Notes under the pieces: generated by a model | Told to the model about the DNA's origin: nothing | The model's input: the letters and a program-made list of their open reading frames with translations, nothing else | Database searches by the model: none | Assembly: GCF_035688975.1 (NCBI RefSeq) | Contig: NZ_DASSMH010000115.1 | Coordinates: forward strand, 41,253-105,252 | Reading direction: 5' to 3' | DNA from: Intrasporangium sp. | GTDB lineage: Bacteria; Actinomycetota; Actinomycetes; Actinomycetales; Dermatophilaceae | DNA: 64,000 bases | Shown: piece by piece, positions 1,715-49,737 of the stretch | Layout of the letters: each line of letters opens with the position of its first letter | How positions within the stretch are numbered: position 1 is the stretch's first letter | Program-made: the position numbers and the translations under genes

Positions 1715-1843
1715 GAATCAACTGGCGGATCACCTGGCATCTGCTGTCGCTCTGGCAGCACCACATGCCAGTTGATCGGCCAGTTGATCGCGCCCGGGTC
1801 CGTCGAAGCAGCACCAGGCGCCAGCTGATCTGCCAGTTGATCG
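1715..1843. repeat. Palindromic 12-mer-array element, copy A
   Basis: Left arm GAATCAACTGGC GGATCACCTGGC, a 28-nt core (..CTGGCAGCACC..) and right arm 2x GCCAGTTGATCG. A second core-like segment follows, then GCCAGCTGATCT GCCAGTTGATCG. Intergenic, upstream of ftsY. Confidence 0.85.
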
Positions 1844-1867
1844 GGGCCCGGCGCGTGGCCCACGCGC

Positions 1868-3106
1868 GTGGACGGACCGACGAGCCGTGCATGGTTGGAT
1901 GACCGCGTGGAAAACCTCTGGATCTACGTCGTTCTCGCCCTCGTCATCGTCGTCGTCGGCGTCGGTCTCGTCGTCGGCTTGGTCCGTGACCGCGGCTCGA
2001 GGGGTCGTCTCGAGGAACGGCCGCCGACCGCGGCGCCGACCCTGCCACCGGACACCGACCTCGACCGGTACCCGCCGCCGGTCACCGAGGCCCCGGCGCG
2101 GGAGCTCGAGGAGGAGGGCGCCCACGCCGAGGTGGAGGTCACCCTCCCGGCCCCGCCAGCGGCGCCCGCCGTGGAGAAGCCCGAGTCGGCACGGGGCCGC
2201 CTGCGTCGCCTGCGCGCTCGCCTGGCCGGCTCCAACACCGTCCTCGGCCGGGGCCTCCTCGCGCTGCTGTCCCGAGGCAGGCTCGACGAGGAGGCGTGGG
2301 AGGAGGTCGAGGACACCCTCATCACGTCCGACCTGGGCGTCGACGCCACGATGGAGCTCGTCAGCTCCCTGCGCACCAGGGTCAAGGTCGACGGCGCCAC
2401 CGACGAGGCCACGGTCCGCGGGTGGCTCCGCGAGGACCTGCTCGCCCTCGTGCGACCTGAGCTGGACCGGCGCATCGCCTCGGCACGAGTCGGAGATCGC
2501 CCCGCCGTCATCCTCGTCGTCGGCGTCAACGGCACCGGCAAGACGACCACCGTCGGCAAGCTGGCCCGCGTGCTCGTCGCCGAGGACCGGGACGTGCTCC
2601 TCGGCGCGGCGGACACGTTCCGCGCGGCCGCAGCAGACCAGCTCGAGACGTGGGGCGCGCGCGTCGGCGTCCCGACCGTGCGCTCCGACAAGGAGGGCGC
2701 CGACCCCGCCGCCGTCGCCTTCGACGCGGTGCGGGCCGGGATCGAGCAGGAGGTCGACGTCGTCATCGTCGACACGGCCGGCCGGCTCCACAACAAGGTC
2801 GGTCTCATGGACGAGCTCGGCAAGATCAAGCGGGTCATCGAGAAGCAGAGCGAGATCGACGAGGTGCTCCTCGTGCTCGACGCGACGACCGGCCAGAACG
2901 GGTTGCAGCAGGCGAAGGTCTTCTCCGAGGCCGTCGACGTCACCGGCATCGTGCTGACCAAGCTCGACGGCACCGCCAAGGGCGGCATCGTCGTGGCCGT
3001 CCAGCGCCAGCTCGGCGTGCCCGTCAAGCTCGTCGGGCTCGGAGAGGGACCGGACGACCTGGCGCCGTTCGACCCGGAGGCCTTCGTCGACGCTCTGCTC
3101 GAGTGA
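1868..3106 (+). CDS. ftsY: Signal recognition particle receptor FtsY
   Basis: N-terminal TM segment (LWIYVVLALVIVVVGVGLVVGLV) and an acidic/Pro-rich linker. SRP-GTPase NG domain with GVNGTGKTTTVGKLA, DTAGR and TKLDG motifs. The start could instead be GTG 1907. Confidence 0.95.
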   Translation: MDGPTSRAWLDDRVENLWIYVVLALVIVVVGVGLVVGLVRDRGSRGRLEERPPTAAPTLPPDTDLDRYPPPVTEAPARELEEEGAHAEVEVTLPAPPAAPAVEKPESARGRLRRLRARLAGSNTVLGRGLLALLSRGRLDEEAWEEVEDTLITSDLGVDATMELVSSLRTRVKVDGATDEATVRGWLREDLLALVRPELDRRIASARVGDRPAVILVVGVNGTGKTTTVGKLARVLVAEDRDVLLGAADTFRAAAADQLETWGARVGVPTVRSDKEGADPAAVAFDAVRAGIEQEVDVVIVDTAGRLHNKVGLMDELGKIKRVIEKQSEIDEVLLVLDATTGQNGLQQAKVFSEAVDVTGIVLTKLDGTAKGGIVVAVQRQLGVPVKLVGLGEGPDDLAPFDPEAFVDALLE

Positions 3107-3157
3107 GCCGAGGGCCCGCGCAGCCGAGGAGCCCGCGCAGCCGAGGAGCCCGAGCGC
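3107..3157. repeat. About 17-bp tandem repeat (about 3 copies: GCCGAGG(A/G)GCCCGCGCA) directly after the ftsY stop
   Basis: Read directly from sequence. Contains CCGCGC...GCGCGG stem potential and may act as the ftsY terminator region. Confidence 0.5.
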
Positions 3158-3158
3158 G

Positions 3159-7928: not shown

Positions 7929-7976
7929 ACGGAGCGGCATACGGAGCGGCATACGGACCGGCATACGGACCGGGTG
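7929..7976. repeat. 12-bp tandem repeat x4 (ACGGAGCGGCAT-type), carrying three copies of octamer CGGCATAC
   Basis: Units at 7929-7940, 7941-7952, 7953-7964 and a degenerate one at 7965-7976. Lies in the divergent hemerythrin/ffh intergenic region. Confidence 0.9.
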
Positions 7977-8023: not shown

Positions 8024-9640
8024 GTGTTCGCATCCCTGTCTGACCGGCTGACCGCCACCTTCAAGAACCTGCGGGGCAAGGGCCGCCTGACGGAGTCCGA
8101 CGTCAACTCGACGGTCCGCGACATCCGGATGGCCCTGCTCGAGGCCGACGTGGCGCTGCCCGTCGTCAAGCGCTTCACCGCCCGGGTCCGGGAGCGGGCG
8201 CTCGGCGCGGAGGTCAGCCAGGCGCTCAACCCGGCGCAGCAGGTCGTCAAGATCGTCCAGGACGAGCTCGTCGGCATCCTCGGCGGGCGGACCCGCCCGA
8301 TCGAGCTGGCCAAGCAGCCGCCGACGGTGATCATGCTCGCCGGACTGCAGGGCTCCGGCAAGACGACGCTCGCCGGCAAGCTCGGCAGGTGGCTCAAGGA
8401 CCAGGGCCACACCCCGATCCTCGTCGCCGCCGACCTGCAACGCCCCAACGCCGTGACCCAGCTCGAGGTCGTCGCCGAGCGTGCGGGCGTGGCGGTCTTC
8501 GCGCCGGAGCGGGGCAACGTCGGCGGCCACGACGCCGTGCTGACCTCGGGCGAGGGCACGCACTCCTTCGGCGACCCGGTCGCGGTGGCTCGGATGGGCG
8601 TGGCGCAGGCGCGGGCGCGGCAGCACGACGTCGTCATCGTCGACACGGCGGGCCGGCTCGCGGTGGACGCCAACCTCATGCAGCAGGCGGCCGACATCCG
8701 CGCCGCCATCGAGCCGGACGAGGTCCTCTTCGTCATCGACGCCATGATCGGCCAGGCGGCCGTCGACACGGCCCACGCCTTCCAGGAGGGCGTCGCGTTC
8801 ACCGGTGTCGTGCTCACCAAGCTCGACGGCGACGCCCGTGGCGGTGCGGCGCTGTCGGTGGCGGAGATCACCCAGCGGCCCATCATGTTCGCGTCGACAG
8901 GCGAGAAGGTCACCGACTTCGAGGTCTTCCACCCGGACCGGATGGCGAGCCGCATCCTCGACATGGGTGACGTGCTCACCCTCATCGAGCAGGCCGAGAA
9001 GGCGTTCGACAAGCGCCACGCCGACGAGATGGCGCGCAAGTTCCTCGCCGAGGAGGACTTCACCTTCGAGGACTTCCTCCAGCAGATGAGCGCCATCAAG
9101 AAGATGGGCTCGCTCAAGGCGATGCTCAAGATGATGCCGGGCATGCAGCAGATGCGCGAGCAGCTCGACGCGTTCGACGACCGCGAGTTCGACCGCGTCG
9201 AGGCGATGGTCCGCTCGATGACGCCCTTCGAGCGCACCCATCCCAAGCAGATCAACGGCTCGCGCCGCGCCCGCATCGCCCGGGGTTCGGGTGTGACGGT
9301 GACCGACGTCAACCAGCTGCTCGAACGCTTCGGGCAGGCGCAGAAGATGATGAAGTCGCTCGCTCGCGGTGGTGGCGCCGGGATCCCCGGTATGCCGTCC
9401 ATCCCGGGTAGCGCCAAGCGCGGCAAGGCCCAGCCGCAGCGCAAGAAGAGCAAGAGCGGCAACCCCGCCAAGCGCGCCGCGGAGGAGCGCGCCCTGGCAC
9501 AGCGGGCGGCTGACGGTCGCGCGAGCGCGGCGGCAGGGGCCTTCGGGCTGCCGAGCGGAGGTGCCGACGGCGGCGCGCCGCTGGAGCTGGACCCGGCGAA
9601 CCTGCCCAAGGGCTTCGACAAGTTCCTCGGCGGCCGCTGA
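8024..9640 (+). CDS. ffh: Signal recognition particle protein Ffh
   Basis: MFASLSDRLTATFKNLRGKGRLTE. NG domain (GLQGSGKTTLAGKLG, DTAGR, TKLDGDARGG), Met-rich M domain and a basic C-terminal tail. Confidence 0.96.
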   Translation: MFASLSDRLTATFKNLRGKGRLTESDVNSTVRDIRMALLEADVALPVVKRFTARVRERALGAEVSQALNPAQQVVKIVQDELVGILGGRTRPIELAKQPPTVIMLAGLQGSGKTTLAGKLGRWLKDQGHTPILVAADLQRPNAVTQLEVVAERAGVAVFAPERGNVGGHDAVLTSGEGTHSFGDPVAVARMGVAQARARQHDVVIVDTAGRLAVDANLMQQAADIRAAIEPDEVLFVIDAMIGQAAVDTAHAFQEGVAFTGVVLTKLDGDARGGAALSVAEITQRPIMFASTGEKVTDFEVFHPDRMASRILDMGDVLTLIEQAEKAFDKRHADEMARKFLAEEDFTFEDFLQQMSAIKKMGSLKAMLKMMPGMQQMREQLDAFDDREFDRVEAMVRSMTPFERTHPKQINGSRRARIARGSGVTVTDVNQLLERFGQAQKMMKSLARGGGAGIPGMPSIPGSAKRGKAQPQRKKSKSGNPAKRAAEERALAQRAADGRASAAAGAFGLPSGGADGGAPLELDPANLPKGFDKFLGGR

Positions 9641-9670
9641 GGCAGGTCACCACGACGAGCCCGTATGCCG

Positions 9671-9826
9671 CCGGGTGCTGCCCTCGCGACGTCGCCTGCC
9701 AGTTGATCCGCCAGTTGATCCGCCAGTAGATCAGTCGCCGATCAACGCGCAGATCAACTGGCGCCGGGTGCTGCCCTGACGACGTCGCCTGCCAGTTGAT
9801 CCGCCAGGAGATCCGCCAGTTGATCA
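9671..9826. repeat. Palindromic 12-mer-array element, copy B (composite, opposite orientation)
   Basis: Two direct modules, each made of core CCGGGTGCTGCCCT(C/G)(G/A)CGACGTCGCCT plus 3x GCCAGTTGATCC-type units (9671-9733 and 9764-9826). They are separated by two inverted units (GCCGATCAACGC GCAGATCAACTGGC). Confidence 0.85.
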
Positions 9827-9857
9827 GCCGTGGGCTGCGAACGCCCGACACGCCTCT

Positions 9858-9947
9858 CTGTCCACAGGCTTCGCCCTCCATCGGCCTGTCCACAGGTGCG
9901 CACCCGCCCCGGAGAAGGCGGCCTCGAACTGGCCCACCCTGTGGACA
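9858..9947. promoter_or_regulatory. Three copies of (C)TGTCCACAGG (two direct, one inverted) upstream of or overlapping the start of the AbiEi/DUF559-like gene
   Basis: CTGTCCACAGG at 9858-9868 and 9886-9896. CCTGTGGACA at 9938-9947, ending at the ATG. This is an 8/9 match to the actinobacterial DnaA box TTGTCCACA and is also a CTGTnnACAG palindrome. Confidence 0.4.
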
Positions 9948-10915
9948 TGGAACTACCCGACCTCCTTCGCGACCTCGTCCATGAGCAGAGCGGCCTCGTG
10001 ACGCGCCGGCAACTGATCGAGGGCGGGGTGCCGCCCGCGATGATTCGCTGGCAGACCGGCCGTCGGTGGCGCTCCGTGCTGCCGGGGGTGATCCTGCTCG
10101 AGTCGTCGCTTCCCACGTGGGATCAGCGCCTTGTGGCCGCACTGCTCGCCGCCGGCCCGAGCTCGTGGCTGAGCGGGACCACCGCCGCCGCCTGGCACGG
10201 CTTGATGGACGGGCGTGAGCGGCTCCCTGTCCATGTCCTGGTGCCTTTCCCGAACCGCAGCCGGCGGATCGGATGGGTCTCCATCCGAGCGACCACCCTG
10301 ACGAACGAGCGCCTCGTGCACCGCGGCCCGCTTCGCATCTCGTGCCGACCGCGCGCCGTCGTCGACGCGGCAGCGCAGGCGCCGGACGAGGCAGCCGCGC
10401 GGGCGCTCGTCATCGCCGCAGTACAGGAGCGACTCGTGCGCGTGGACGACGTGCAGCACTGGCTCGGCGTCCGCCGGCGCAACGGCACCCTGCGCCTCAA
10501 GGCCGCGGTTCGAGAGGCCGCCGCTGGAGCGTGGTCCGTGCCCGAGGCCGAGCTGGCGACGCTGGTGACACGCTCCCGGAGCCTGCCGCCGGTCTGGGCG
10601 AACCCCCAGCTGACCGACCAGGTGGGACGACCGCTCACGACACCGGACCTGTGGTTCGATGATGTGGGCATGGCCGTCATGGTGCACTCCCGCCGCTTCC
10701 ATGGCGGGCAGCTGGACTGGGAAGGCACCGTCGACGCCGACGAGGATCTACGAGCCGTCGGGATCGAGGTCGTCAGCGTCACGCCGTCGGCCATCGGACG
10801 GGAGCCGGCCAAGGTCATGGCCCGCATCGAGTCCGGCCATGCGCGGGCCGCGGCGCGTCCCCGACCCGAGGTCACTGCGGTGCCGCGCGACTTCCTCCGC
10901 AGGGCCAGCGGCTGA
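9947..10915 (+). CDS. AbiEi_4-like N-terminal domain / DUF559 (endonuclease-like) C-terminal domain protein
   Basis: MELPDLLRDLVHEQSGLVTRRQLIEGGVPPAMIRWQTGRRWRSVLPGVILL... is typical of actinobacterial AbiEi-antitoxin-like proteins. The C-terminus ...VMVHSRRFHGGQLDWEGTVDADEDLRAVGIEVVSVTPSAI is DUF559/Vsr-fold-like. GTG 9941 is an alternative start. Confidence 0.6.
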   Translation: MELPDLLRDLVHEQSGLVTRRQLIEGGVPPAMIRWQTGRRWRSVLPGVILLESSLPTWDQRLVAALLAAGPSSWLSGTTAAAWHGLMDGRERLPVHVLVPFPNRSRRIGWVSIRATTLTNERLVHRGPLRISCRPRAVVDAAAQAPDEAAARALVIAAVQERLVRVDDVQHWLGVRRRNGTLRLKAAVREAAAGAWSVPEAELATLVTRSRSLPPVWANPQLTDQVGRPLTTPDLWFDDVGMAVMVHSRRFHGGQLDWEGTVDADEDLRAVGIEVVSVTPSAIGREPAKVMARIESGHARAAARPRPEVTAVPRDFLRRASG

Positions 10916-10930
10916 GTTCGGCCGCTCAGC

Positions 10931-11018
10931 CAATCAACTGGCGGATCAACTGGCGGGTGGTGTTGCCCTGGCAGCAGCGGGTGCCAGTTGATCGGCCAGT
11001 TGATCGGCCAGTTGATCG
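10931..11018. repeat. Palindromic 12-mer-array element, copy C
   Basis: CAATCAACTGGC GGATCAACTGGC, core GGGTGGTGTTGCCCTGGCAGCAGCGGGT, then 3x GCCAGTTGATCG. Starts 16 nt after the upstream stop codon. Confidence 0.88.
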
Positions 11019-11033
11019 CGGGCCGGGGCGGGG

Positions 11034-11196: not shown

Positions 11197-11214
11197 CTCG
11201 GTAGGGTCGGCAGC

Positions 11215-19469: not shown

Positions 19470-19519
19470 GGCCTGCAGGGCGGTGACCGCGCAGGCGCCG
19501 CCGGCCGCAGGCTGGTGGC

Positions 19520-38760: not shown

Positions 38761-38770
38761 ACCACCCCCT

Positions 38771-38852: not shown

Positions 38853-38873
38853 ACGCGCGTCCCGGGGCAACGC

Positions 38874-39983: not shown

Positions 39984-40059
39984 GGCGCCATTGTGCCGAG
40001 CCGCCTGCACGGCCCGGACCGGACGCACTTGCCACATCCACCGGTGGCAGGATCGGCGG

Positions 40060-41001: not shown

Positions 41002-41007
41002 CCGCCC

Positions 41008-41751
41008 TCAGAAGTCCCCGCCGCCGAAGTCCCCGCCGAAGTCCCCGCCGCCGAAGTCGCCGAACCCGCCGCCGAAGTCGCTGCCGAGGTCGCCACCGCC
41101 GTCCCCGGCGTAGTCCACCCCCGAGTCGGCGCCGGTGTCCGCGCCCGTGTCCGCGCCCGAGTCGCCGCTGTCGCCGGCTGGGTCACCCGTGTCGGCGGCG
41201 GCCGCCGCCTCGGGGGAATCGTCGAAGCCGCCCATCATCGCGTCGGCGATGGCGGAGCCGACCACGACGCCGGCGATGGTCCCGAGCATCGAGCCGGCGA
41301 ACATGCCACCCATGCCCATGCCACCCATGCCCATGCCACCGCGGCCCATGCCCATGCCGCCACCGCCGAACGCCTGTGGCAGGTAGCCGGGCTGGCGCAT
41401 CTCGGCCCGGGTCGCGGCCCGCGCGAGCTCGGCCGGATCGGCACGGGTCGGCCGCTCGGCCTCGGGCAGGTCGGCGCTCATCCGCTGCAGCACCTGCTGG
41501 CGCTGCTCCTGCGTCAGCTTCTCGAACGCCTCGCGGTGCACCTGCTCGATGGCCTCGGGCGGCGCGGTGCGCAGCAGGTACTTGTACCGCGCGATGGCGC
41601 GCTCGTCCTCCTCCGAGGCGCCGCCCGAGGGAGCCGGCACGGCATACGGCTGGCCCGAGGGCGGCGGAAGCGAGCCATCGCGCGGGGCCGGGGCGCCGGT
41701 GCGGGACGAGGAGAGCGGCTCACGGCCGAGCAGCCGGTCGAGAAAACCCAT
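41008..41751 (-). CDS. Hypothetical low-complexity protein (Gly/Met-rich hydrophobic segment, acidic Gly/Asp C-terminal repeats)
   Basis: MGFLDRLLGR..., a helical region (QEQRQQVLQRM), GMGMGRGGMGMGGMGMGGMFAGSMLGTIAGVVVGSAIA and (GGDF)n at the C-terminus. Codon bias is consistent with coding. Confidence 0.55.
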   Translation of the reverse strand: MGFLDRLLGREPLSSSRTGAPAPRDGSLPPPSGQPYAVPAPSGGASEEDERAIARYKYLLRTAPPEAIEQVHREAFEKLTQEQRQQVLQRMSADLPEAERPTRADPAELARAATRAEMRQPGYLPQAFGGGGMGMGRGGMGMGGMGMGGMFAGSMLGTIAGVVVGSAIADAMMGGFDDSPEAAAAADTGDPAGDSGDSGADTGADTGADSGVDYAGDGGGDLGSDFGGGFGDFGGGDFGGDFGGGDF

Positions 41752-41855
41752 GGTGGGACCCCTTGGAGTGTCGATGCTGGGAGTGTGCTGACAACGACAC
41801 CCCTACCCCGTGAAGTTCCCGCTACAACCGGGTCCGACGGGCGGGCCCCCCCGGG

Positions 41856-43361: not shown

Positions 43362-43437
43362 GATCAGCCCTTCACGCCCCTCAGGGCCATGGTCGCGCGG
43401 CAGCCTCCGCAGGGGTAGGGGCCAAGGTCCCGCCCGT

Positions 43438-43515
43438 CTCAGCGGTGGTTCTCAGTGGTGGTTCTCAGTGGTGGTTCTCAGCGGTGGTTCTCAGCGGTGG
43501 TTCTCAGAGGTGGTT
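43438..43515. repeat. 13-bp tandem repeat x6 (CTCAG(C/T/A)GGTGGTT)
   Basis: Six contiguous units. The last supplies the final codons and TGA stop of the aminotransferase on the - strand. The array lies 77 bp upstream of the deacetylase start codon. Confidence 0.9.
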
Positions 43516-44946
43516 CTCCGCCTCCGTGAGCACCGACCGCAGCCGCGACTCCATCTCGTCGAACTGCTCCGGGCCCATCGTCAGCGGCGGCGCGAGCTGC
43601 ACGACGGGGTCGCCGCGGTCGTCGGCGCGGCAGTAGAGCCCCGCGTCGAAGAGCGCCTTGGACAGGAAGCCGCGCAGCAGCCGCTCGGCCTCTGCGTCGT
43701 CGAAGGTCTCGCGCGTCGCCTTGTCCTTGACCAGCTCGATCCCGTAGAAGTAGCCGGCGCCGCGGACGTCGCCCACGAGCGGCAGGTCGAGCAGCCGCTC
43801 GAGCGTGGCGCGGAACGCCGGGGCGTTGTCCTTAACGTGCTGGGTCAGGCCCTCGCGCTCGAAGATGTCGAGGTTGGCCATGGCGACGGCCGCCGAGACG
43901 GGGTGGCCGCCGAAGGTGTAGCCGTGCGGGAAGTACGTCGTGCCGTGCCGGAAGGGCTCGAAGAGCCGGTCGCTCGCGATCATCGCGCCGATGGGGGAGT
44001 AGCCGCTCGTCAGCCCCTTGGCGCAGGTGATGATGTCGGGCACGTAGCCGAAGTCGTCGCAGGCGAACATCGAGCCGATCCGCCCGAAGGCGCAGATGAC
44101 CTCGTCGGAGACGAGCAGCACGTCATGCGCGTCACAGATCTCGCGGACCCGCTGGAAGTAGCCGGACGGCGGCGGGAAGCAGCCGCCCGAGTTCTGCACC
44201 GGCTCGAGGAAGACCGCCGCGACGGTGTCCGGCCCCTCGAACTCGATCGCCTCGGCGATGCGGTCCGCGGCCCACCGGCCGAAGGCCTGCTCGTCGTGTC
44301 GCAGGTGCTCCGGTGCCCGGTAGGCGTTGGTGTTGGGCACCTTGAACGCGCCGGGCACGAGCGGCTCGAACATCTCCTTGGCGGCCGGTATGCCGGTGAT
44401 GGACAGGGCTCCCTGCGGGGTGCCGTGATAGGCGACGGCGCGGGAGATGACCTTGTGCTTCGTCGGCCTGCCCGTCAGCTTGAAGTACTGCTTGGCCAGC
44501 TTCCACGCCGTCTCGACCGCCTCGCCGCCACCCGTGGTGAAGAAGACCCGGTTGAGGTCGCCGGGAGCGTATGCCGCGAGCCGCTCGGCGAGCTCGATCG
44601 CGCTCGGGTGCGCGTAGGACCAGAGCGGGAAGAACGCCAGCTCGCGGGCCTGGCGTGCGGCCGCCTCGGCGAGCTCCTCGCGGCCGTGCCCGACCTGGAC
44701 GACGAAGAGCCCGGCGAGGCCGTCGATGTACTCGTTGCCACGGTCGTCCCAGAGGGTCCAGCCACGGCCTCGGGTGATGACCGGGACCGAGTGCCCCAGT
44801 CCGCCCGCCGAGCCGGGCTCCTCGAAGACCGAGTGCCGCGTGAAGTGCATCCACAGGTGGTCGCGGGCCGCCTGGGCGTAGGTGGCGCCGGTGCGGGTGG
44901 ACCGGTCGGACTCCGGCTCCCACACGTCGTTCGGGTCGACGGTCAT
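43504..44946 (-). CDS. Class III PLP-dependent (omega/GABA/putrescine-type) aminotransferase
   Basis: GNEYIDGLAGLFVVQVGHGR, FFTTGGGEAVETAWK, LLVSDEVICAFGRIG and TCAKGLTSGYSPIG (PLP-Lys). Confidence 0.88.
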   Translation of the reverse strand: MTVDPNDVWEPESDRSTRTGATYAQAARDHLWMHFTRHSVFEEPGSAGGLGHSVPVITRGRGWTLWDDRGNEYIDGLAGLFVVQVGHGREELAEAAARQARELAFFPLWSYAHPSAIELAERLAAYAPGDLNRVFFTTGGGEAVETAWKLAKQYFKLTGRPTKHKVISRAVAYHGTPQGALSITGIPAAKEMFEPLVPGAFKVPNTNAYRAPEHLRHDEQAFGRWAADRIAEAIEFEGPDTVAAVFLEPVQNSGGCFPPPSGYFQRVREICDAHDVLLVSDEVICAFGRIGSMFACDDFGYVPDIITCAKGLTSGYSPIGAMIASDRLFEPFRHGTTYFPHGYTFGGHPVSAAVAMANLDIFEREGLTQHVKDNAPAFRATLERLLDLPLVGDVRGAGYFYGIELVKDKATRETFDDAEAERLLRGFLSKALFDAGLYCRADDRGDPVVQLAPPLTMGPEQFDEMESRLRSVLTEAENHL

Positions 44947-45434
44947 CGGGTCCCCCAGTTGTAGAGCTGTTTGTTGAGCTTGAGGTAGACGAAGGTCTCC
45001 GTGACGGTCACGGAGGGAAGGTTTCGGATCCGGGTGGTGAGCAGCTCGAGCAGGTGGTCGTCGTCCTCGCAGACCACCTCGGCGAGGATGTCGAAGCTGC
45101 CGGCGGTGGTGACGACGTAGGAGACCTCCTCGATGGCGGAGAGCGCCTGCGCCACTGCAGTCATGTCGCCGGCGACCCGTATGCCGACCATCGCCTGGCG
45201 TTGGAAGCCCACCTGCAGAGGGTCGGTCACGGCGACGATCTGCATCACCTGGGCATCGAGCAGGCGCTGCACGCGCTGGCGCACCGCCGCCTCCGACAGG
45301 CCCACCTCGCCGGCGATCGAGGCATAGGACTTTCGCCCGTCCTGCTGCAGCTGCTCGATGATCGACTTGGAGACGTCGTCAAGGCTGGTCGGGGCCTGGC
45401 GGCCCGGCCGCCCGCGGGCCCGCTTGGTCGTCAT
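44943..45434 (-). CDS. Lrp/AsnC family transcriptional regulator
   Basis: LDDVSKSIIEQLQQDGRKSYASIAGEVGLSEAAVRQRVQRL (HTH) plus a RAM domain. The stop overlaps the aminotransferase start (ATGA). Confidence 0.88.
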   Translation of the reverse strand: MTTKRARGRPGRQAPTSLDDVSKSIIEQLQQDGRKSYASIAGEVGLSEAAVRQRVQRLLDAQVMQIVAVTDPLQVGFQRQAMVGIRVAGDMTAVAQALSAIEEVSYVVTTAGSFDILAEVVCEDDDHLLELLTTRIRNLPSVTVTETFVYLKLNKQLYNWGTR

Positions 45435-45546
45435 GCCTCGATGGTGACCTGCGCAACCGCGCCTTGGCAACCACGATTGCGACTGAATCCGAAGCCAGCG
45501 CACCGACAGCCTTTCGAATTCGTAGGGACCGGCCTACCATGCCCAC

Positions 45547-46995
45547 ATGACGAACCGGCCTCGCCCGCTGCGCAACTTCGTCGGTGGCCGGTATGTCGAG
45601 CCGGCCAGCGACACCCGGACCGAGGTCGTCAACCCGGCCACGGCGACGGTGGTGGCGACCGCCCCGGTGAGCGGTCAGGCCGATGTCGACGCGGCATACG
45701 ACGCGGCGGCCCAGGCCTTCGCGACGTGGGGGGAGACGACCCCGAGCGCGCGCCAGCACGCGCTGTTGAAGTTCGCCGACGCCATCGAGCGGCGGGCCGA
45801 CGAGCTCGTGCGGCTCGAGGTGGAGGACACGGGCAAGCCGCGCTCGCTCACGGCGAGCGAGGAGCTGCCGCCCATGGTCGACCAGCTGCGCTTCTTCGCC
45901 GGCGCGGCGCGGGTGCTCGAGGGCCGGGCGGCGGCGGAGTACCTGCCCGGGCACACGTCGTGGGTGCGGCGGGAACCCATCGGGGTCGTCGGCCAGGTCA
46001 CGCCGTGGAACTACCCCATGATGATGGCCATCTGGAAGGTCGGGCCCGCCCTCGCCGCGGGCAACACCGTCGTGCTCAAGCCCTCCGACACGACGCCCCA
46101 GACGACCCTGCTGCTCGCGGAGATCGCCTCGGAGTTCCTGCCCGACGGCGCCTTCAACGTCGTCACCGGCGACCGCGAGACAGGCCGGATGCTCGTCGAG
46201 CACCCGACACCGGCCATGGTCGCCATCACCGGCTCGGTGCGCGCGGGCATGGAGGTGGCCGCCAGCGCGTCGCGCGACGTCAAGCGCGTGCACCTCGAGC
46301 TCGGCGGCAAGGCGCCGGTCATCGTCTTCGACGACGCGGACGTCGAGGCCGCGGCGGCGGGCATCGGCCTCGCCGGCTACTTCAACGCGGGCCAGGACTG
46401 CACGGCCGCCACCCGGGTGCTGGCCGGGCCCCGCGTGCACGACGACTTCGTGGCCGCCCTCGCGGACTACGCCCGGAACGAGGCCAGGGTCGGTATGCCG
46501 GACGACCCGGGCGCCCTCGTCGGCCCGGTCAACAACCGCAACCAGGTGCGCCACGTCGCGGGCTTCCTCGACCGGCTGCCCGAGCACGCCCGGGTCGCCG
46601 CCGGCGGCTCGCGGGTCGCGGCTCTGGGCGACGGCTTCTTCTTCGAGCCGACGGTGCTCGCCGGGCTGCACCAGGACGACGAGCAGGTGCAGTCGGAGAT
46701 CTTCGGCCCGGTCATCACCGTGCAGCGGTTCACCGACGAGGAGCAGGCCCTCGCGTGGGCCAACGGCGTGGACTACGGCCTCGCGTCGAGCGTCTGGACC
46801 CGCGACTTCGGCAAGGCGATGCGGATGAGCAAGCGGCTCGACTTCGGGTGCGTGTGGATCAACACGCACCTCCCCCTCGTCGCGGAGATGCCGCACGGCG
46901 GGTTCAAGCACAGCGGCTACGGCAAGGACCTGTCGATGTACGGCCTCGAGGACTACACCCGGGTCAAGCACGTCATGGCCAACCTCGAGTCGTGA
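45547..46995 (+). CDS. NAD-dependent aldehyde dehydrogenase (gamma-amino/guanidino-butyraldehyde dehydrogenase-like)
   Basis: ALDH motifs: [35 protein letters not shown] (catalytic Cys) and EIFGPV. Confidence 0.88.
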
Positions 46996-47018
46996 CTGCC
47001 GCGGGCTAGGCTGCGCGG

Positions 47019-48113
47019 GTGAGCCGCTACGGTGCGCAGTTCGGCCCCGATGTCACCTTCCTCGGGGTGGAGCGGTGCGACCTCGACGTGCCCGAGTCGT
47101 ATGCCGGTGCCGACGTCGTCATCGTCGGCGCCCCCTTCGACGGAGGAACCTCCCACCGGCCGGGGGCCCGCTTCGGCCCGCAGGCGATCCGGACGACCGA
47201 CTACCTGCCCCAGGACGGCTCGCGGCCGTCGCTGGCGCTGCGCACCGACGGCCTCGTGGACCTGCGGGTCCTCGACGCAGGCGACGTCGAGATGTACTCG
47301 GGCGACATCGAGAGGGCGCTGCCCGCGCTCGAGGCCGCGGTCGAGAAGGTCGCTCGCGCCGGGGCCATCCCCGTCGTCCTCGGCGGCGACCACTCCATCG
47401 CCTACCCCGACGCCAAGGGCGTGGCCAACGTCCTCGGTCACGGGCGGGTGTCGATGGTCCACTTCGACGCCCACGCCGACACCGGCGACATCGAGTTCGG
47501 CTCGCTCTGGGGCCACGGCCAGCCGATGCGGCGGCTCATCGAGTCCGGCGCCCTGCGCGGCGACCGCTTCCTCCAGGTGGGTCTGCGCGGCTACTGGCCC
47601 GGGCCGCAGACCCTCGACTGGATGGCACACCAGGGCATGCGGTCCTACGAGATGACCGAGATCGGCCACCGGGGCCTCGACGACTGCCTCACCGAGGCGT
47701 TCGCCATTGCCACCGACGAGTGCGACGGCGTCTTCCTCAGCGTCGACATCGATGTCTGCGACCCCGGTCACGCCCCGGGCACCGGCACCCCGGAGCCCGG
47801 TGGGCTCTCCGCACGCCAGCTGCTGGACGCCGTCCGCCGAGTCTGCCTCGAGCTGCCCGTCGTGGGCGTCGACGTCGTCGAGGTGTCGCCGCCCTACGAC
47901 CAGGCCGACATCACCGCCGCGTTGGCCAACCGGGTTGTCCTGGAAGCCCTGTCGGCCATCGCCCGCAAGCGCCGCGACGCCCGGGACGGCATCCGGTGGG
48001 ACCCGTCCATCGCGCTCCTGTCGGGCCGCGTTCCCGAAGGCCGCCGCGGCCGCGCTGACGAGCACCGAGCCACCACCCGAGCGCCCCGTCCACTGACACC
48101 GGAAGGTCCCTGA
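47019..48113 (+). CDS. Ureohydrolase family protein (agmatinase / guanidinobutyrase-like)
   Basis: VGAPFDGGTSHRPGARFGP, GGDHSIAYP, HFDAHADT and SVDIDVCDPGHAPGTGTPEPGG. It has an unusual basic C-terminal tail of about 45 aa. GTG start. Confidence 0.85.
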   Translation: MSRYGAQFGPDVTFLGVERCDLDVPESYAGADVVIVGAPFDGGTSHRPGARFGPQAIRTTDYLPQDGSRPSLALRTDGLVDLRVLDAGDVEMYSGDIERALPALEAAVEKVARAGAIPVVLGGDHSIAYPDAKGVANVLGHGRVSMVHFDAHADTGDIEFGSLWGHGQPMRRLIESGALRGDRFLQVGLRGYWPGPQTLDWMAHQGMRSYEMTEIGHRGLDDCLTEAFAIATDECDGVFLSVDIDVCDPGHAPGTGTPEPGGLSARQLLDAVRRVCLELPVVGVDVVEVSPPYDQADITAALANRVVLEALSAIARKRRDARDGIRWDPSIALLSGRVPEGRRGRADEHRATTRAPRPLTPEGP

Positions 48114-48114
48114 C

Positions 48115-49578
48115 ATGACCGCCACTCGCGAGCGAACCGTCCTCGAGGCCGTCCCCACCGGGCTGCTCATCGGCGGGCGGTGGCGCGACGCCACCGGAGG
48201 CGCCACGCTGGCCGTCGACGACCCCGCGACCGGCGAGACGCTGGCCCGCGTGGCTGACGCCACCGTCGCCGACGGGCGCGCGGCGCTCGACGCCGCCGTG
48301 GCTGCGCAGGCCGACTGGGCCGCCGTCCCGCCCCGCGATCGCGGAGAGCTGCTGCGCGCGGCATACGAGAAGCTCACCGCCCGCGCCGACGACTTCGCCA
48401 TGATCATGACGCTCGAGATGGGCAAGCCCCTCGCCGAGTCGCGGGGCGAGGTGGCATACGGCGCCGAGTTCTTCCGGTGGTTCTCCGAGGAGGCGGTCCG
48501 GGTCGGCGGGCGCTACTCGACCTCCCCGAACGGCGCGACCCGCCTGCTGACGATGAAGCAGCCGGTCGGGCCGACCCTCATGATCACGCCGTGGAACTTC
48601 CCGCTGGCGATGGGTACGCGGAAGATCGGCCCCGCCATCGCCGCCGGCTGCACCATGGTGATGAAGCCGGCGAGCGCCACCCCGCTGACGATGCTCGCGC
48701 TCGCCGAGCTGCTGCGCGAGTGCGGCCTGCCCGACGGGGTGCTCAACGCCATCACGACCAGCTCCACCGGGCAGGTCATCGAGCCGCTCATCCGCGACCC
48801 GCGGCTGCGCAAGCTCACCTTCACCGGCTCGACGGAGGTCGGGCGCACCCTGCTCGAGCAGGCGTCGCAGCAGGTCCTGCGCGTGTCGATGGAGCTCGGC
48901 GGCAACGCGCCGTTCCTCGTCTTCGGCGACGCGGACCTGGACAAGGCGGTCGACGGGGCGGTGACCGCCAAGATGCGCAACATGGGCGAGGCATGCACGG
49001 CGGCCAACCGGTTCTACGTCCACGAGTCGGTGGCCGAGGAGTTCTCGCGGCGACTGGCCGAGCGGCTGGGGGCGCTGCGGCTCGGCCGGGGCACCGACGA
49101 CGGCGTGGACGTCGGGCCGCTCGTCGACGCGAAGTCGCGGGACAAGGTCTCCGCCCTCGTCGACGACGCGGTCGCCAAGGGGGCGAAGGTCCTCGTCGGC
49201 GGCTCCTCGCCGGAGGGCGCCGGCTGGTTCTACCGCCCCACGGTGCTCTCCCAGGTGCCCGCCGACGCCCGACTGGCACGGGAGGAGATCTTCGGCCCCG
49301 TGGCGCCGGTGTCGAGCTTCACCAGCGACGAGGAGGCCGTGCGGATGGCCAACGACACCGAGTACGGCCTCGTCGCCTACCTCTTCACCCGGGACCTGTC
49401 CCGCGCACTGCTCGTCTCGGAGGCGCTCCAGTTCGGCATGGTCGGCGTCAACCAGGGCATCGTGTCCAACCCCGCTGCTCCCTTCGGCGGGGTCAAGGCG
49501 AGCGGCGTCGGGCGCGAGGGCGGCTTCGAGGGCATCGAGGAGTACCTCGAGACCAAGTACGTGGGGCTGGCCCTCTGA
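48115..49578 (+). CDS. gabD: Succinate-semialdehyde dehydrogenase (NAD(P)+)
   Basis: Typical GabD: ITPWNFPLAMGTRKIGPA, VSMELGGNAP, RNMGEACTAANR and EEIFGPV. Confidence 0.85.
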   Translation: MTATRERTVLEAVPTGLLIGGRWRDATGGATLAVDDPATGETLARVADATVADGRAALDAAVAAQADWAAVPPRDRGELLRAAYEKLTARADDFAMIMTLEMGKPLAESRGEVAYGAEFFRWFSEEAVRVGGRYSTSPNGATRLLTMKQPVGPTLMITPWNFPLAMGTRKIGPAIAAGCTMVMKPASATPLTMLALAELLRECGLPDGVLNAITTSSTGQVIEPLIRDPRLRKLTFTGSTEVGRTLLEQASQQVLRVSMELGGNAPFLVFGDADLDKAVDGAVTAKMRNMGEACTAANRFYVHESVAEEFSRRLAERLGALRLGRGTDDGVDVGPLVDAKSRDKVSALVDDAVAKGAKVLVGGSSPEGAGWFYRPTVLSQVPADARLAREEIFGPVAPVSSFTSDEEAVRMANDTEYGLVAYLFTRDLSRALLVSEALQFGMVGVNQGIVSNPAAPFGGVKASGVGREGGFEGIEEYLETKYVGLAL

Positions 49579-49613
49579 GTCGTGCTCGCTCCCTCGCGCG
49601 GTATGCCGCCCGT

Positions 49614-49737
49614 CGAACGGCTGGCGGATCAGCTGGTGGATCAACCGGCGAATCAGCTGGTGGATCAACTGGCGGATCAACTGGCGTCTGATGTCGTCAG
49701 GGCAGCAGCAACGGCCAGTTGATCTGCCAGTTGATCG
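49614..49737. repeat. Palindromic 12-mer-array element, copy D
   Basis: Five left units (GGATCAGCTGGT GGATCAACCGGC GAATCAGCTGGT GGATCAACTGGC GGATCAACTGGC), core GTCTGATGTCGTCAGGGCAGCAGCAACG, then two right units GCCAGTTGATCT GCCAGTTGATCG. Confidence 0.88.

What the first reader, a model, noticed from the sequence alone, without database searches (positions are those of the whole stretch)
1715..49737. Family of intergenic elements built from inverted arrays of a GATC-containing 12-mer around a conserved 28-nt core
Four copies (1715-1843, 9671-9826, 10931-11018, 49614-49737) share one architecture. It is (GGATCAACTGGC)n, then a core (consensus about G.C.GA.GTCG.CAGGGCAGCA(C/G)C...), then (GCCAGTTGATC.)m. 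Arm copy numbers vary: 2/2 (+2), 3 and 3 with 2 inverted, 2/3, and 5/2. The arms can pair into 24-36 bp stems. Every unit carries GATC, so each element is a dense GATC cluster at 12-bp spacing. All copies are intergenic and none fits a gene; the track ORFs across them give INWRINWR / QLADQLAD / PVDRPVDR peptides. There is no transposase, no terminal-inverted-repeat plus target-duplication pattern that I can see, and no CRISPR-like spacers. They resemble REP/BIME or MITE-like structured repeats, but the internal 12-mer iteration is unusual. It suggests a protein-binding array (iteron-like, or SeqA/Dam-like GATC clusters), an mRNA hairpin (terminator or stabiliser), or a RAYT-type substrate.
Basis: seen in the sequence. 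Interest (0 to 1): 0.75.

Follow-up and report, generated by a model that had tools for sequence, protein, structure and literature searches.

The report
Palindromic repeats bracketing a nuclease gene
The four odd 12-mer/GATC repeats are real copies of a hairpin-forming repeat whose home is on either side of one uncharacterised DNA-binding/nuclease gene, which suggests an undescribed actinobacterial counterpart of the REP-plus-dedicated-enzyme systems of other bacteria.

Summary
Four loci carry inverted arrays of a 12-nt unit (GCCAGTTGATC) around a ~28-nt asymmetric core. A covariance model finds them and nothing else in the window. The source is an Intrasporangium-like MAG.

Its 322-aa product has an AbiEi-type winged-helix front and a Vsr/DUF559-like nuclease-fold C-terminus.

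Every homologue I could inspect is bracketed the same way:
- Six genomes at the ffh locus carry the same elements, with a 17-nt core identical across genera.
- A 59%-identical homologue between map and infA has a related core, but its 12-nt-periodic arms lack GATC.
- A 30% homologue in Rhodococcus is flanked by two unrelated but mutually paralogous palindromes.
- Four relatives lacking the gene show no element in about 20 kb each.

E1 and E4 are solo copies. The E1 site is empty in seven relatives.

Best reading: these are the cognate DNA elements of this protein, in a REP/RAYT-like or IS200-like arrangement with a non-HUH nuclease, and they probably also end transcripts. The association is shown; binding, cleavage and mobility are inferred. 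GATC/Dam and RAYT readings are not supported. No description was found in the literature.

The parts
1714..1790 (-). E1a: complete solo element (2 left units, 28-nt core, 2 right units). It lies between a small membrane-protein ORF (about 1429-1620) and ftsY (1868-3106).
   Evidence: Sequence. CM R1 scores 79.8 bits on - against 69.8 on +. Unit map. ftsY identified by Pfam. This site has no element in seven relatives.
1791..1843 (-). E1b: half element. A second, degenerate core (cgcccgggtccgtcgaagcagcaccaggc) followed by 2 right-type units, with no left arm of its own.
9672..9733 (+). E2a: half element. Core (GGTGCTGCCCTCGCGAC at 9674) plus 3 right units and no left arm. It directly abuts GTATGCCGC (9663-9671), the left half of the ffh terminator-like hairpin seen in relatives.
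   Evidence: (20.5 bits).
9739..9826 (+). E2b: complete element upstream of the bracketed gene (2 left units, core, 3 right units). Its core contains the family 17-mer GGTGCTGCCCTGACGAC exactly.
   Evidence: 71.6 bits on +, 49.2 on -.
9859..9946 (+). Spacer and presumed promoter region of the bracketed gene. It holds two direct GTCCACAGG boxes (9860, 9888) and an inverted one (9940) at the start codon. Boxes of this kind precede every homologue, including the one in Rhodococcus.
   Evidence: D5. Similar boxes also precede yraN-comM, so they are probably not specific to this gene.
9947..10915 (+). Bracketed gene: a 322-aa protein with an AbiEi/Rv2827c-like winged-helix N-terminal part and a Vsr/DUF559-like nuclease-fold C-terminal domain. 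D234, D238, S248 and H252 are invariant; H247 is present in 38 of 44 homologues.
   Evidence: Pfam AbiEi_4 is weak in this protein (E=0.002-0.003) and found in 26 of 44 homologues. AF2 model has pLDDT 89. Foldseek against PDB: 1zel 5e-4, 6y8q 1e-3, 3r3p TMt 0.73-0.75, 3hrl. Foldseek against BFVD is dominated by DUF559/Vsr/homing endonucleases. Conservation.
10931..11018 (.). E3: complete element 16 nt after the stop codon of the bracketed gene (2 left units, quasi-palindromic core, 3 right units).
   Evidence: 76.0 bits on -, 74.7 on +; -53.5 kcal/mol, z -6.4.
49615..49737 (-). E4: complete solo element between an aldehyde dehydrogenase gene (48115-49578) and dxr (49768-50979). It has 5-6 left units (the outer ones degenerate, with a 24-nt sub-period), a core and 2 right units.
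   Evidence: 86 bits on -; -73.4 kcal/mol, z -9.5.

Best explanation
The four loci are copies of a lineage-specific palindromic repeat. Two inverted arrays of a 12-nt unit surround a ~28-nt asymmetric core, and the whole can form a 25-35-bp hairpin or cruciform.

The family's home is a three-part module. Two copies, normally in the same orientation, bracket one chromosomal gene (window 9947-10915). That gene encodes a protein with an AbiEi-type winged-helix DNA-binding part and a Vsr/DUF559-type nuclease-fold domain.

I infer that the repeats are the cognate DNA sites of this protein. It could recognise them as inverted-repeat double-stranded sites, the way AbiEi and Rv2827c bind 23-bp inverted-repeat pairs, and/or as extruded hairpins that present the conserved core. 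I also infer that the pair insulates and controls the gene.

The solo copies (E1, E4) would then be dispersed derivatives. They could be non-autonomous copies as in REP/RAYT, or single copies left after recombination between the two direct flanking copies of a former module insertion (solo-LTR-like).

As stable hairpins placed just after stop codons they very likely also end or stabilise transcripts.

Shown: the anatomy, the conserved bracket around the gene in three genomic contexts, the conservation of the core, and the existence of solo copies. Inferred: binding, cleavage, mobility and terminator activity.
For: (1) Bracket at the ffh locus. In the window, I. oryzae (L126), Terracoccus luteus (L131), a JGI genome (L132/L133), an ENA contig (L134) and a 6.65-Mb contig (L135), orthologues of 61-74% identity have an element about 80-170 nt upstream and another at or over the stop codon. 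In L126, L131, L132 and L134 no other element occurs in 17-21 kb.

(2) Co-absence. I. calvum, I. mesophilum, T. carboxydivorans and L130 lack the gene between ffh and the amidohydrolase gene, and show no element in about 17-21 kb each.

(3) Different locus, same module. The 59% homologue P0180 sits between map and infA (L136-L145). It is bracketed by hairpins with a related core (cTGGTTGCTGCAGCGACC; AGTGCTGTGCCAACGACCACC) and 12-nt-periodic arms of different sequence (GCCGCT...). The gene's TAG stop lies in the inner left-arm unit, as it does in L131.

(4) Deep conservation of the arrangement. The 30% homologue in Rhodococcus ruber is bracketed by two palindromes that are 81% alike, with 22-26-nt arms and a 3-nt loop.

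(5) Constraint on the core. The 17-mer GGTGCTGCCCTGACGAC is identical in the window (E2b), the L047 MAG, L131 and L132, although the bracketed proteins are only 66-74% identical.

(6) Paralogy and concerted change of the two flanking copies. In I. oryzae the upstream and downstream cores are 89% alike but only 50-79% like the cores of other genomes. Arms within the window are 85-93% alike.

(7) Arm covariation. Two arm types (GCCAGTTGATC and GCAGACTGATC) sit 70 nt apart in L047 with the same core. Changes on both sides of a pair occupy 36 cells against 22.9 +/- 3.9 in shuffles (1 of 500); the covariation score beats all 500 shuffles.

(8) Protein folds: AbiEi/Rv2827c plus DUF559/Vsr/I-Bth0305I-like, with invariant Asp and His residues.

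(9) Precedent. AbiEi binds two 23-bp inverted repeats separated by 3 bp, and Rv2827c binds pairs separated by 13 bp (PMC7319586). The arms here are 24 nt (2 x 12); in Rhodococcus they are 22-26 nt with a 3-nt gap.

(10) Solo copies are real and lineage-specific. The E1 site is empty in seven relatives. L047, L112 and L124 have elements without the gene.
Against: - No biochemical evidence exists; binding and cleavage are pure inference.
- Six of the eight bracketed cases share one ancestral locus. Independent contexts therefore number three, and in Rhodococcus the palindrome is not recognisably the same family.
- Genome-wide copy numbers could not be obtained, so the co-absence rests on about 20 kb per genome.
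- The nuclease-fold call rests on a predicted structure. Pfam DUF559/MTES_1575 hits are below threshold, and neither the PDB sequence search nor NCBIfam finds anything.
- Most stem pairing is explained by column composition (80.1% paired against 77.4% in shuffles). The arms of I. oryzae pair poorly (16 of 23), so a strict hairpin requirement is not shown.
- The conserved protein front end might instead bind the conserved GTCCACA boxes, but those boxes also precede yraN-comM in genomes without the gene.
- The gene family is absent from the phage and viral collections and nearly absent from plasmids, so there is no sign of present-day horizontal mobility.
- In L135 the downstream core is flipped.
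Confidence: 0.55

Rival explanations
1. They are simply strong factor-independent terminator/insulator hairpins or mRNA 3'-end stabilisers (the BIME/REP-type physiological role), with no functional tie to the neighbouring protein. Their presence on both sides of the gene only reflects insulation of a potentially harmful nuclease gene.
For: Every copy with a callable neighbouring gene sits just after, or over, a stop codon. This holds for E1 (after the small ORF), E2 (after ffh), E3 (after the bracketed gene) and E4 (after the aldehyde dehydrogenase gene), for L056, and for L112 between convergent genes. Three of the four window segments fold at z -6.0 to -9.5 (E2b only z -1.9). Relatives carry ordinary hairpins at the same places, after ffh and after the small ORF. 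The core occurs in both orientations relative to transcription, as expected if only the stem matters.
Against: A terminator needs neither a 17-nt loop sequence identical across genera nor upstream and downstream copies that are paralogues in every lineage, including Rhodococcus. There is no U-tract: 0 terminator-like sites in 9500-11400. Gene and elements are present or absent together. This role is compatible with the best explanation as a side function, but is insufficient alone.
Confidence: 0.2
2. They are non-autonomous mobile palindromes (REP/REPIN or MITE/PATE type) moved by an unlinked enzyme encoded elsewhere in the genome (a RAYT, an IS200/IS605 TnpA or another transposase). The conserved position around the AbiEi-like gene would be an old insertion hot spot.
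For: Palindromic, intergenic, variable in copy number and in orientation. Solo copies occur at lineage-specific sites. Within-genome similarity exceeds between-genome similarity.
Against: No Y1_Tnp/RAYT or DDE transposase is found among about 50 ORFs of the window, though the rest of the genome is unseen. There are no TIRs and no target duplications. A hot spot does not explain why homologues at two other loci (map-infA; Rhodococcus emb-accD4) are also bracketed, each by its own lineage's palindromes.
Confidence: 0.1
3. They act as RNA: a structured small RNA or cis-regulatory 3'-UTR element whose conserved loop (GGUGCUGCCCUGACGAC or its complement) pairs with a target or binds a protein.
For: The conserved loop is presented on a long stem, the elements lie in transcribed 3' regions, and there is a slight excess of G-T over A-C mismatches (36 vs 21).
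Against: The core lies in both orientations relative to the flanking genes, all on the + strand here (E2 against E1 and E4; flipped in L135 downstream), so half the copies would present the complement. No Rfam family matches, at gathering threshold or at E<=1 apart from chance miRNA-hairpin hits. The mismatch bias is not significant.
Confidence: 0.08
4. They are GATC-methylation-dependent protein-binding clusters (SeqA/Dam-like, or targets of a GATC-specific enzyme) or iteron-like arrays for a replication or partition protein.
For: In the Intrasporangium/Terracoccus type every unit carries GATC at exact 12-bp spacing, and TGATC is the most invariant part of the arms.
Against: The homologous elements around the 59% homologue keep a related core and the 12-nt period but have no GATC at all. 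GATC is not rare in these genomes (292 observed against 158 expected). No Dam-like methylase, replication or partition gene lies nearby. The copies are dispersed among housekeeping operons.
Confidence: 0.05

Closest known systems
REP/REPIN elements with their RAYT (REP-associated tyrosine transposase)
   Same: Short intergenic palindromic repeats. One dedicated, chromosomal, largely vertically inherited gene is itself flanked by copies of the repeat. Further copies are dispersed in the genome, and copies within a genome resemble each other (concept from PMC3337134 and PMC3116915; data here).
   Different: The flanked gene is not a Y1/HUH transposase but an AbiEi-fold wHTH with a Vsr/DUF559-like nuclease fold. 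The flanking copies are direct, not inverted. There is no GTAG-type head. The arms are built from iterated 12-nt units with variable copy number. Copy density is low (4 loci in 64 kb, often only the two flanking ones in 20 kb). The host is Actinomycetota.
AbiEi / Rv2827c antitoxin-repressors and their inverted-repeat operators (type IV AbiE toxin-antitoxin)
   Same: The N-terminal two-thirds of the protein has the AbiEi/Rv2827c fold. Those proteins bind pairs of 23-bp inverted repeats separated by 3 or 13 bp upstream of their own gene (PMC7319586). Here the arms are 24 nt (22-26 nt with a 3-nt gap in Rhodococcus), and one copy lies upstream of the gene.
   Different: No AbiEii/DUF1814 toxin gene follows; the next gene is an amidohydrolase gene, or infA. 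The protein has an extra C-terminal nuclease-fold domain. The spacer is 28 nt and is conserved. A second copy sits at the 3' end. Solo copies lie tens of kb away. The upstream copy lies about 120-210 nt before the start codon in the window, beyond the presumed promoter.
IS200/IS605-family elements and their hairpin-only derivatives (PATEs)
   Same: One gene is bracketed by two similar subterminal hairpins in direct orientation, without terminal inverted repeats or visible target duplications. Gene-less hairpin derivatives occur elsewhere. (The family's properties are from my own knowledge.)
   Different: There is no TnpA (Y1 HUH) or TnpB. The gene appears single-copy and syntenic across genera. 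There is no evidence of current transposition.
BIME/REP-type and other hairpin terminators or mRNA stabilisers
   Same: Stable GC-rich hairpins immediately after stop codons, between co-directional or convergent genes.
   Different: A sequence-conserved loop, paralogous copies tied to one gene, iterated 12-nt arms and no U-tract.
Vsr-fold (EDxHD/DUF559) homing endonucleases such as I-Bth0305I
   Same: The C-terminal domain of the model superposes on 3r3p and 3hrl (TM 0.67-0.75 normalised to the target). It also matches viral DUF559, Vsr and homing-endonuclease models. Asp and His residues are conserved. The gene is lodged between essential housekeeping genes.
   Different: It is not in an intron or intein, and not in phage. 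It is flanked by complete palindromes rather than by split target halves. Catalytic activity is untested.

Membership tests
REP/REPIN-RAYT system | Associated gene is a RAYT (Y1 HUH transposase, Pfam Y1_Tnp) | tested here: not met
   The flanked gene hits only AbiEi_4, and its fold is AbiEi plus DUF559/Vsr-like. No Y1_Tnp is found among about 50 window ORFs. The rest of the genome was not seen.
REP/REPIN-RAYT system | The dedicated gene is flanked by copies of the repeat, and the repeat is dispersed elsewhere | tested here: met
   The gene is flanked on both sides in the window, L126, L131, L132, L134 and L135 (and L136 with variant arms). Solo copies are E1, E4, L047, L112 and L124. The orientation of the flanking copies is direct, not inverted as described for RAYTs.
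REP/REPIN-RAYT system | Short (20-40 nt) imperfect palindrome with a conserved head such as GTAG, present in tens to hundreds of copies | tested here: inconclusive
   The element is palindromic but 77-125 nt long, built of 12-nt iterations, and has no GTAG head. The genome-wide copy number could not be measured.
AbiE type IV toxin-antitoxin | AbiEi-fold antitoxin/repressor | tested here: met
   Foldseek: 1zel (Rv2827c) E=5e-4 and 6y8q (AbiEi) E=1e-3, probability 1.00. Pfam AbiEi_4 is found in 26 of 44 homologues and AbiEi_1 in 2.
AbiE type IV toxin-antitoxin | Bicistronic operon with an AbiEii/DUF1814 nucleotidyltransferase toxin | tested here: not met
   The downstream genes are an amidohydrolase gene plus a GNAT gene, or infA, or accD4 on the opposite strand. 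No DUF1814 is present in any locus.
AbiE type IV toxin-antitoxin | Operator made of 23-bp inverted-repeat pairs overlapping the promoter | tested here: inconclusive
   Arms are 24 nt (2 x 12), or 22-26 nt in Rhodococcus. However, the spacer is 28 nt, the site lies 80-210 nt upstream, and a second site follows the gene. The operator geometry is from PMC7319586. Binding was not tested.
IS200/IS605 family | TnpA (Y1 HUH) and/or TnpB gene | tested here: not met
   Same Pfam and fold results as above.
IS200/IS605 family | Similar subterminal hairpins at both ends in direct orientation, with no TIR and no TSD | tested here: met
   This is a resemblance only.
Intrinsic (Rho-independent) terminator | GC-rich hairpin followed by a U-tract at a gene's 3' end | tested here: inconclusive
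   The hairpin and the 3'-end position are met. A U-tract is absent: 0 sites in 9500-11400. Actinobacterial terminators often lack U-tracts (my own knowledge).
MITE | Terminal inverted repeats matching a resident transposon, plus a target-site duplication | tested here: not met
   No duplication is seen at the element borders. No transposase is present in the window.
Dam/SeqA-type GATC cluster | GATC is the conserved, functional part of the repeat | tested here: not met
   GATC is invariant within the Intrasporangium/Terracoccus type. It is absent from the homologous elements of L136 and from the Rhodococcus palindromes.
Integron attC / CALIN | Imperfect palindromes with RYYYAAC...GTTRRRY ends following each cassette, near or derived from an IntI integron | tested here: not met
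   GATCAAC/GTTGATC fits the core sites in only 6 of 7 positions (my reading of the consensus). The copies are dispersed among housekeeping genes. The only tyrosine recombinase (22613-24367) is in the xerC position next to comM and rpsB.
Vsr/DUF559 (PD-(D/E)XK-like) nuclease | Vsr-type fold with conserved catalytic Asp/His | tested here: inconclusive
   The model's C-terminal domain matches 3r3p and 3hrl (probability 0.66-0.82) and many viral DUF559/Vsr models (probability up to 1.0). D234, D238 and H252 are invariant and H247 is present in 38 of 44. Pfam DUF559 is not hit and MTES_1575 only reaches E=0.03-0.09. The PDB sequence search finds nothing.
Rfam RNA families | Match to a curated covariance model | tested here: not met
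   0 hits at gathering threshold over the window. Only chance miRNA-hairpin hits far below threshold appear at E<=1.

The most novel reading that the evidence does not exclude
An undescribed class of selfish-then-domesticated DNA module in Actinomycetota. It consists of a wHTH(AbiEi-fold)-Vsr-like nuclease gene bracketed by two direct copies of a long, co-evolving palindrome that the enzyme recognises and cuts. It lodges between essential housekeeping genes (ffh, map-infA, emb-accD4) and sheds solo palindromes around the genome. In other words, it is a functional analogue of REPIN-RAYT or IS200/IS605 built on a completely different (non-HUH) nuclease. The protein family is large: 330, 3,183 and 12,323 50%-identity clusters at E<=1e-30, 1e-10 and 1e-3.
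Probability: 0.35. Interest if true: 0.85.

Novelty: new variant of a known kind. Interest (0 to 1): 0.72.

Why it matters
Repeat-plus-dedicated-enzyme systems such as REPIN-RAYT are, as far as I know, described mostly in Proteobacteria and always with a HUH tyrosine transposase. I found no paper describing an equivalent in high-GC Gram-positives.

If the bracket seen here is functional, three things follow:
- It assigns a first testable role and a DNA substrate to a large, unannotated actinobacterial protein family (AbiEi-like front, Vsr/DUF559-like back).
- It shows a second, independent enzymatic route to persistent intragenomic palindrome populations.
- It explains a class of odd intergenic repeats in Intrasporangiaceae genomes that can break assemblies and could serve as strain markers, because arm copy number varies.

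It also offers a compact protein/DNA-hairpin pair that could be of use as a sequence- or structure-specific nickase. If only the terminator reading is right, the finding is a curiosity of local genome architecture.

Tried and rejected
- **Genome scan.** Only L047 and L056 were real, so no genome-wide counts could be made.
- **Metagenome scan.** A core-plus-arm pattern gave 15 stretches, of which 3 were real, all from one sample. The two DNA-pattern scans of viral contigs gave 4 unrelated stretches and none.
- **Source contig.** The source MAG's own contig could not be fetched.
- **Exact-sequence literature search.** It returned only primers. Searches on AbiEi+DUF559, DUF559, Intrasporangiaceae palindromes, and Vsr-like+HTH+palindromic repeats found nothing relevant.
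- **Databases.** Rfam gave nothing. The PDB sequence search and NCBIfam gave nothing for the protein. Phage, viral and plasmid collections gave no close homologue.
- **Translated repeat.** Rejected: the loci lie outside GC3-supported frames.
- **Integron attC idea.** Rejected; see the membership test.
- **GTATGCCGC as an insertion target.** It abuts E2a and E4 but none of the copies in other genomes. It is also part of ordinary post-stop hairpins, so I dropped the idea.
- **GTCCACA boxes as the protein's private operator.** Weakened, because the same boxes precede yraN-comM even in genomes without the gene.
- **Strand bias of G-T vs A-C mismatches.** Tried as a test for an RNA role: 36 vs 21, not decisive.
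- **Filled-versus-empty site alignment for E1.** The site is empty in relatives, but the flanks are too diverged to define borders or duplications.
- **Two CM hits in a Kitasatospora locus.** They turned out to be coding sequence.
- **tblastn of 269 family proteins against all fetched loci.** It found no extra gene copies.

Full report
**1.

The four loci read as described. The 11-mer GCCAGTTGATC, allowing up to 2 mismatches, occurs 40 times in the window against 13.9 +/- 3.7 in shuffles. Of these, 25 lie in the four loci in strict 12-nt register.

The layout of each locus is:

| Locus | Layout |
|---|---|
| E1 (1714-1843) | L2-core-R2, then a second degenerate core plus R2 |
| E2 (9672-9826) | core-R3, a 6-nt spacer, then L2-core-R3 |
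| E3 (10931-11018) | L2-core-R3 |
| E4 (49615-49737) | L5-6-core-R2; the outer left units decay and show a 24-nt sub-period |

The distance from the core's CGAC to the first TGATC of the right arm is a fixed 13 nt in every copy I checked.

The core is asymmetric, with consensus GGTGCTGCCCTGACGAC. It reads on the + strand in E2a and E2b, and on the - strand in E1a, E1b and E4. E3's core is quasi-palindromic.

Three of the four window segments folded give hairpins of -54 to -73 kcal/mol, z -6.0 to -9.5. E2b is weaker at -35.8 kcal/mol, z -1.9.

A covariance model (R1, built from alignment A2 of 18 copies) run with filters off recovers exactly these loci at 72-86 bits, and E2a at 20.5 bits. Nothing else in the 64 kb exceeds 24 bits. 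In 740 kb of unrelated loci, all chosen because they contain two tandem units, the maximum is 31 bits. GC3 frame analysis puts all four loci between genes.

**2. Source and gene context**

The Ffh protein of the window is identical to one annotated 'MAG TPA: Intrasporangium sp.'. The nearest named relatives are Terrabacter and Intrasporangium at about 87% identity.

The window is a housekeeping stretch, in this order:
- smc, a small ORF, ftsY, amtB, glnB, glnD, ffh
- a 322-aa gene, then an amidohydrolase gene and a GNAT gene
- rimM (RimM domains), trmD, rplS, lepB, rnhB, a DUF2469 gene, yraN, comM
- a xerC-like gene, then rpsB, tsf, pyrH, cdsA, rlmN
- a roughly 13-kb metabolic block
- dxr, rseP, ispG, proS

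No Y1_Tnp/RAYT, DDE transposase or Dam-like gene was found. The element positions are:
- E1 lies between the small ORF and ftsY.
- E2 lies between ffh and the 322-aa gene.
- E3 lies right after that gene.
- E4 lies between an aldehyde dehydrogenase gene and dxr.

All flanking genes are on the + strand.

**3. The key finding: E2 and E3 bracket one gene, and this bracket is conserved**

The gene (9947-10915, starting MELPDLL) has orthologues of 61-74% identity. I fetched five orthologous loci:
- I. oryzae (L126)
- Terracoccus luteus (L131)
- a JGI genome (L132/L133)
- an ENA contig (L134)
- a 6.65-Mb contig (L135)

In every one, an element of the same family lies about 80-170 nt upstream of the start codon, and another lies at or across the stop codon. 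The core 17-mer is on the gene's sense strand in both positions, except that the downstream copy of L135 is flipped.

In L126, L131, L132 and L134 these are the only elements in 17-21 kb.

Four relatives in which ffh is followed directly by the amidohydrolase gene or by other genes have no element in about 17-21 kb each. These are I. calvum, I. mesophilum, T. carboxydivorans and L130.

The 17-mer GGTGCTGCCCTGACGAC is identical in the window, L047, L131 and L132, although the bracketed proteins are only 66-74% identical. That is far more conservation than neutral intergenic DNA would keep.

**4. The bracket travels with the gene**

A 59%-identical homologue (P0180) sits in a different place, between map and infA in the ribosomal-protein cluster (L136-L145). 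It is again bracketed by two hairpins:
- Their cores are recognisably related (cTGGTTGCTGCAGCGACC upstream; AGTGCTGTGCCAACGACCACC downstream).
- Their arms are again 12-nt periodic and begin with GCC, but are otherwise different (GCCGCTnnnnnn) and contain no GATC.
- The gene's TAG stop lies in the inner left-arm unit, exactly as in L131.

A 30%-identical homologue in Rhodococcus ruber lies between an arabinosyltransferase gene and accD4-pks13. It is bracketed by two near-perfect palindromes that are 81% alike, with 22-26-nt arms and a 3-nt loop.

So 'gene plus two paralogous palindromes' is a trait of the protein family. The palindrome sequence changes with the lineage, while the two copies around each gene stay alike. 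In I. oryzae the two cores are 89% alike but only 50-79% like the cores of other genomes.

**5. The protein**

- Pfam gives only a weak AbiEi_4 hit in this protein. The domain is found in 26 of 44 homologues, and AbiEi_1 in 2.
- NCBIfam and a PDB sequence-profile search give nothing.
- An AlphaFold2 model from 44 homologues is confident, with pLDDT 89.2 and pTM 0.80.
- Against the PDB, the model matches Rv2827c (1zel, E=5e-4) and S. agalactiae AbiEi (6y8q, E=1e-3) over the first 200-260 residues.
- The last roughly 100 residues match the Vsr-like catalytic domain of homing endonuclease I-Bth0305I (3r3p, target-normalised TM 0.73-0.75) and the DUF559-like NGO0050 (3hrl).
- Against viral models, the hits are dominated by DUF559, 'very-short-patch-repair endonuclease', homing and restriction endonucleases.
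- In the C-terminal motif TTPDLWFDDvalAVMVHSRrFH, residues D234, D238, S248 and H252 are invariant and H247 is present in 38 of 44. I recall that this pattern resembles the Asp/His pattern of Vsr, but I did not test that.
- The family is large: 330, 3,183 and 12,323 50%-identity clusters at E<=1e-30, 1e-10 and 1e-3.
- It is absent from the phage and viral collections and all but absent from plasmids.

**6. Solo copies**

- E1 and E4 have no family gene within the window.
- L047 (a Terracoccus MAG), L112 and L124 carry elements without the gene.
- The E1 site, between the small ORF and ftsY, has no element in seven relatives. In I. oryzae the corresponding spacer is only about 17 nt. E1 is therefore a lineage-specific gain.
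- Solo copies have the most perfect arms (20-22 of 23 Watson-Crick pairs). The old flanking copies of I. oryzae have 16 of 23.
- Half elements and tandem pairs are common: E1b, E2a, L047a+b, L131up1+up2, and the third partial copies downstream in L131 and L134.

**7. Hairpin or double-stranded binding site?**

On A2 the 31-pair helix is 80.1% paired against 77.4% in column shuffles, so most pairing follows from the palindromic consensus. There is nevertheless extra covariation. Changes on both sides of a pair occupy 36 cells against 22.9 +/- 3.9 (1 of 500 shuffles), and the covariation score is 0.192 against 0.140 (0 of 500). Register slides drop pairing to 21-46%.

The clearest case is L047. 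Two elements 70 nt apart share the core, but one has arms GGATCAGTCTGC/GCAGACTGATCC and the other has GATCAACTCGC/GCCAGCTGATCC.

Arms that change freely while staying complementary, around a conserved centre, argue that the stem matters as a stem and the core as a sequence. Palindrome-internal gene conversion could give the same picture without selection.

On the other side, AbiEi binds two 23-bp inverted repeats 3 bp apart, and Rv2827c binds pairs 13 bp apart (PMC7319586). That geometry is close to the 24-nt (2 x 12) arms here and to the 22-26-nt/3-nt palindromes of Rhodococcus. I cannot separate the two modes with sequence alone; they may coexist as cruciform extrusion.

**8. Best explanation and its limits**

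I conclude that the repeats are the cognate DNA elements of the bracketed wHTH-nuclease-fold protein. Together they form a module of element, promoter, gene and element. This module is inherited vertically, has changed locus at least twice in the family's history, and has left or spawned solo copies.

This is the logic of REPIN-RAYT (PMC3337134, PMC3116915), and the architecture resembles IS200/IS605, but with an unrelated enzyme.

The hairpins almost certainly also act as transcript ends, since all sit at gene 3' ends. They lack U-tracts, however, and a terminator role alone explains neither the conserved core nor the paralogy of the two flanking copies.

Binding, cutting and mobility are inferences. 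Six of the eight bracketed cases share one ancestral locus, and I could not obtain genome-wide counts.

**9. Rejected or weakened readings**

- **GATC/Dam/SeqA.** GATC is lost in the L136-type homologous elements.
- **RAYT substrate.** No RAYT was found, and the flanked gene is of another fold.
- **RNA with a functional loop.** The core occurs in both orientations relative to transcription, and there is no Rfam match.
- **Translated repeat, CRISPR, attC, MITE.** Their defining features are not met (see the membership test).

**10. Novelty**

No paper in the searchable library mentions the unit sequence, or links AbiEi-like/DUF559-like proteins to flanking palindromes.

I rate it a new variant of a known kind: palindromic repeats with a dedicated flanked gene. 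There is a substantial chance that it represents a new enzymatic class of such systems.

Noticed in passing
window, 25 sites (e.g. 237, 1292, 7934, 7946, 9663, 49601, 50026); also L125 11640-11680, L127 4130-4165, L134 9722-9768: The 9-mer GTATGCCGC (often cGTATGCCGCc) occurs 25 times in 64 kb against 0.19 expected. It lies on both strands, inside genes and between them, with unrelated flanks. In relatives it forms the two halves of hairpins after the smc and ffh stop codons. It looks like an uptake-sequence-, Chi- or HIP1-like over-represented word of these genomes.
   Followed up: partly
window 19379-19470 (also 9860, 9888, 9940); L125 20941/20972; L127 20974; L136 5911/5942; L146 2359: GTCCACA(G/C) boxes. 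Six lie in a 13-nt-period array between the DUF2469 gene and yraN(UPF0102)-comM. Two or three lie in front of the AbiEi-like gene in every lineage, including Rhodococcus. They are also present before yraN in genomes without that gene. This may be a shared regulator or promoter motif for nuclease and DNA-processing genes.
   Followed up: partly
window 11017-11191: A G-rich tandem repeat (period 24/46, CGCGGGCGGGGACGGGGCGGCCAT, about 7.5 copies) lies directly 3' of E3 and before the amidohydrolase start. Shorter G-runs occupy the same place in L131, L132, L134 and L135, but not in genomes lacking the module. It could form a G-quadruplex.
   Followed up: no
window 59259-60881 (-): An ORF with a DUF222 domain, the domain of mycobacterial '13E12 repeat family' HNH-endonuclease-type proteins. 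It lies between a TauE exporter gene and a ferric-reductase-like gene, and may be another selfish nuclease gene.
   Followed up: no
window 43437-43518; 7929-7973; 3106-3152: Other short intergenic or genic tandem repeats: 13 nt x 6.3 (TCTCAGCGGTGGT) between two minus-strand genes; 12 nt x 3.8 (ACGGACCGGCAT), made of repeated GTATGCCG words; and 17 nt x 2.8 at the ftsY end.
   Followed up: no
window 36862-49578: About 13 kb of accessory metabolic genes lies between rlmN and dxr: acetyl-CoA synthetase, a transporter, polysaccharide deacetylase, an aminotransferase, an AsnC regulator, two aldehyde dehydrogenases and an arginase-family gene. E4 marks the junction of this block with dxr.
   Followed up: no
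L131 11100-11150; L134 11075-11110: Third, partial elements (left-arm units plus a decayed core, with no right arm) follow the complete downstream element. Like E1b and E2a in the window, they suggest frequent recombination or slippage between adjacent copies.
   Followed up: no
L126 9910-9945; L056 2690-2710; L131 11195-11216: Leaderless-type promoter signatures (TACGCT or TAGGGT, 6-7 nt, then ATG/GTG) precede several genes downstream of elements. The 'GGCATAC' of the over-represented 9-mer sometimes supplies the -10-like hexamer.
   Followed up: no
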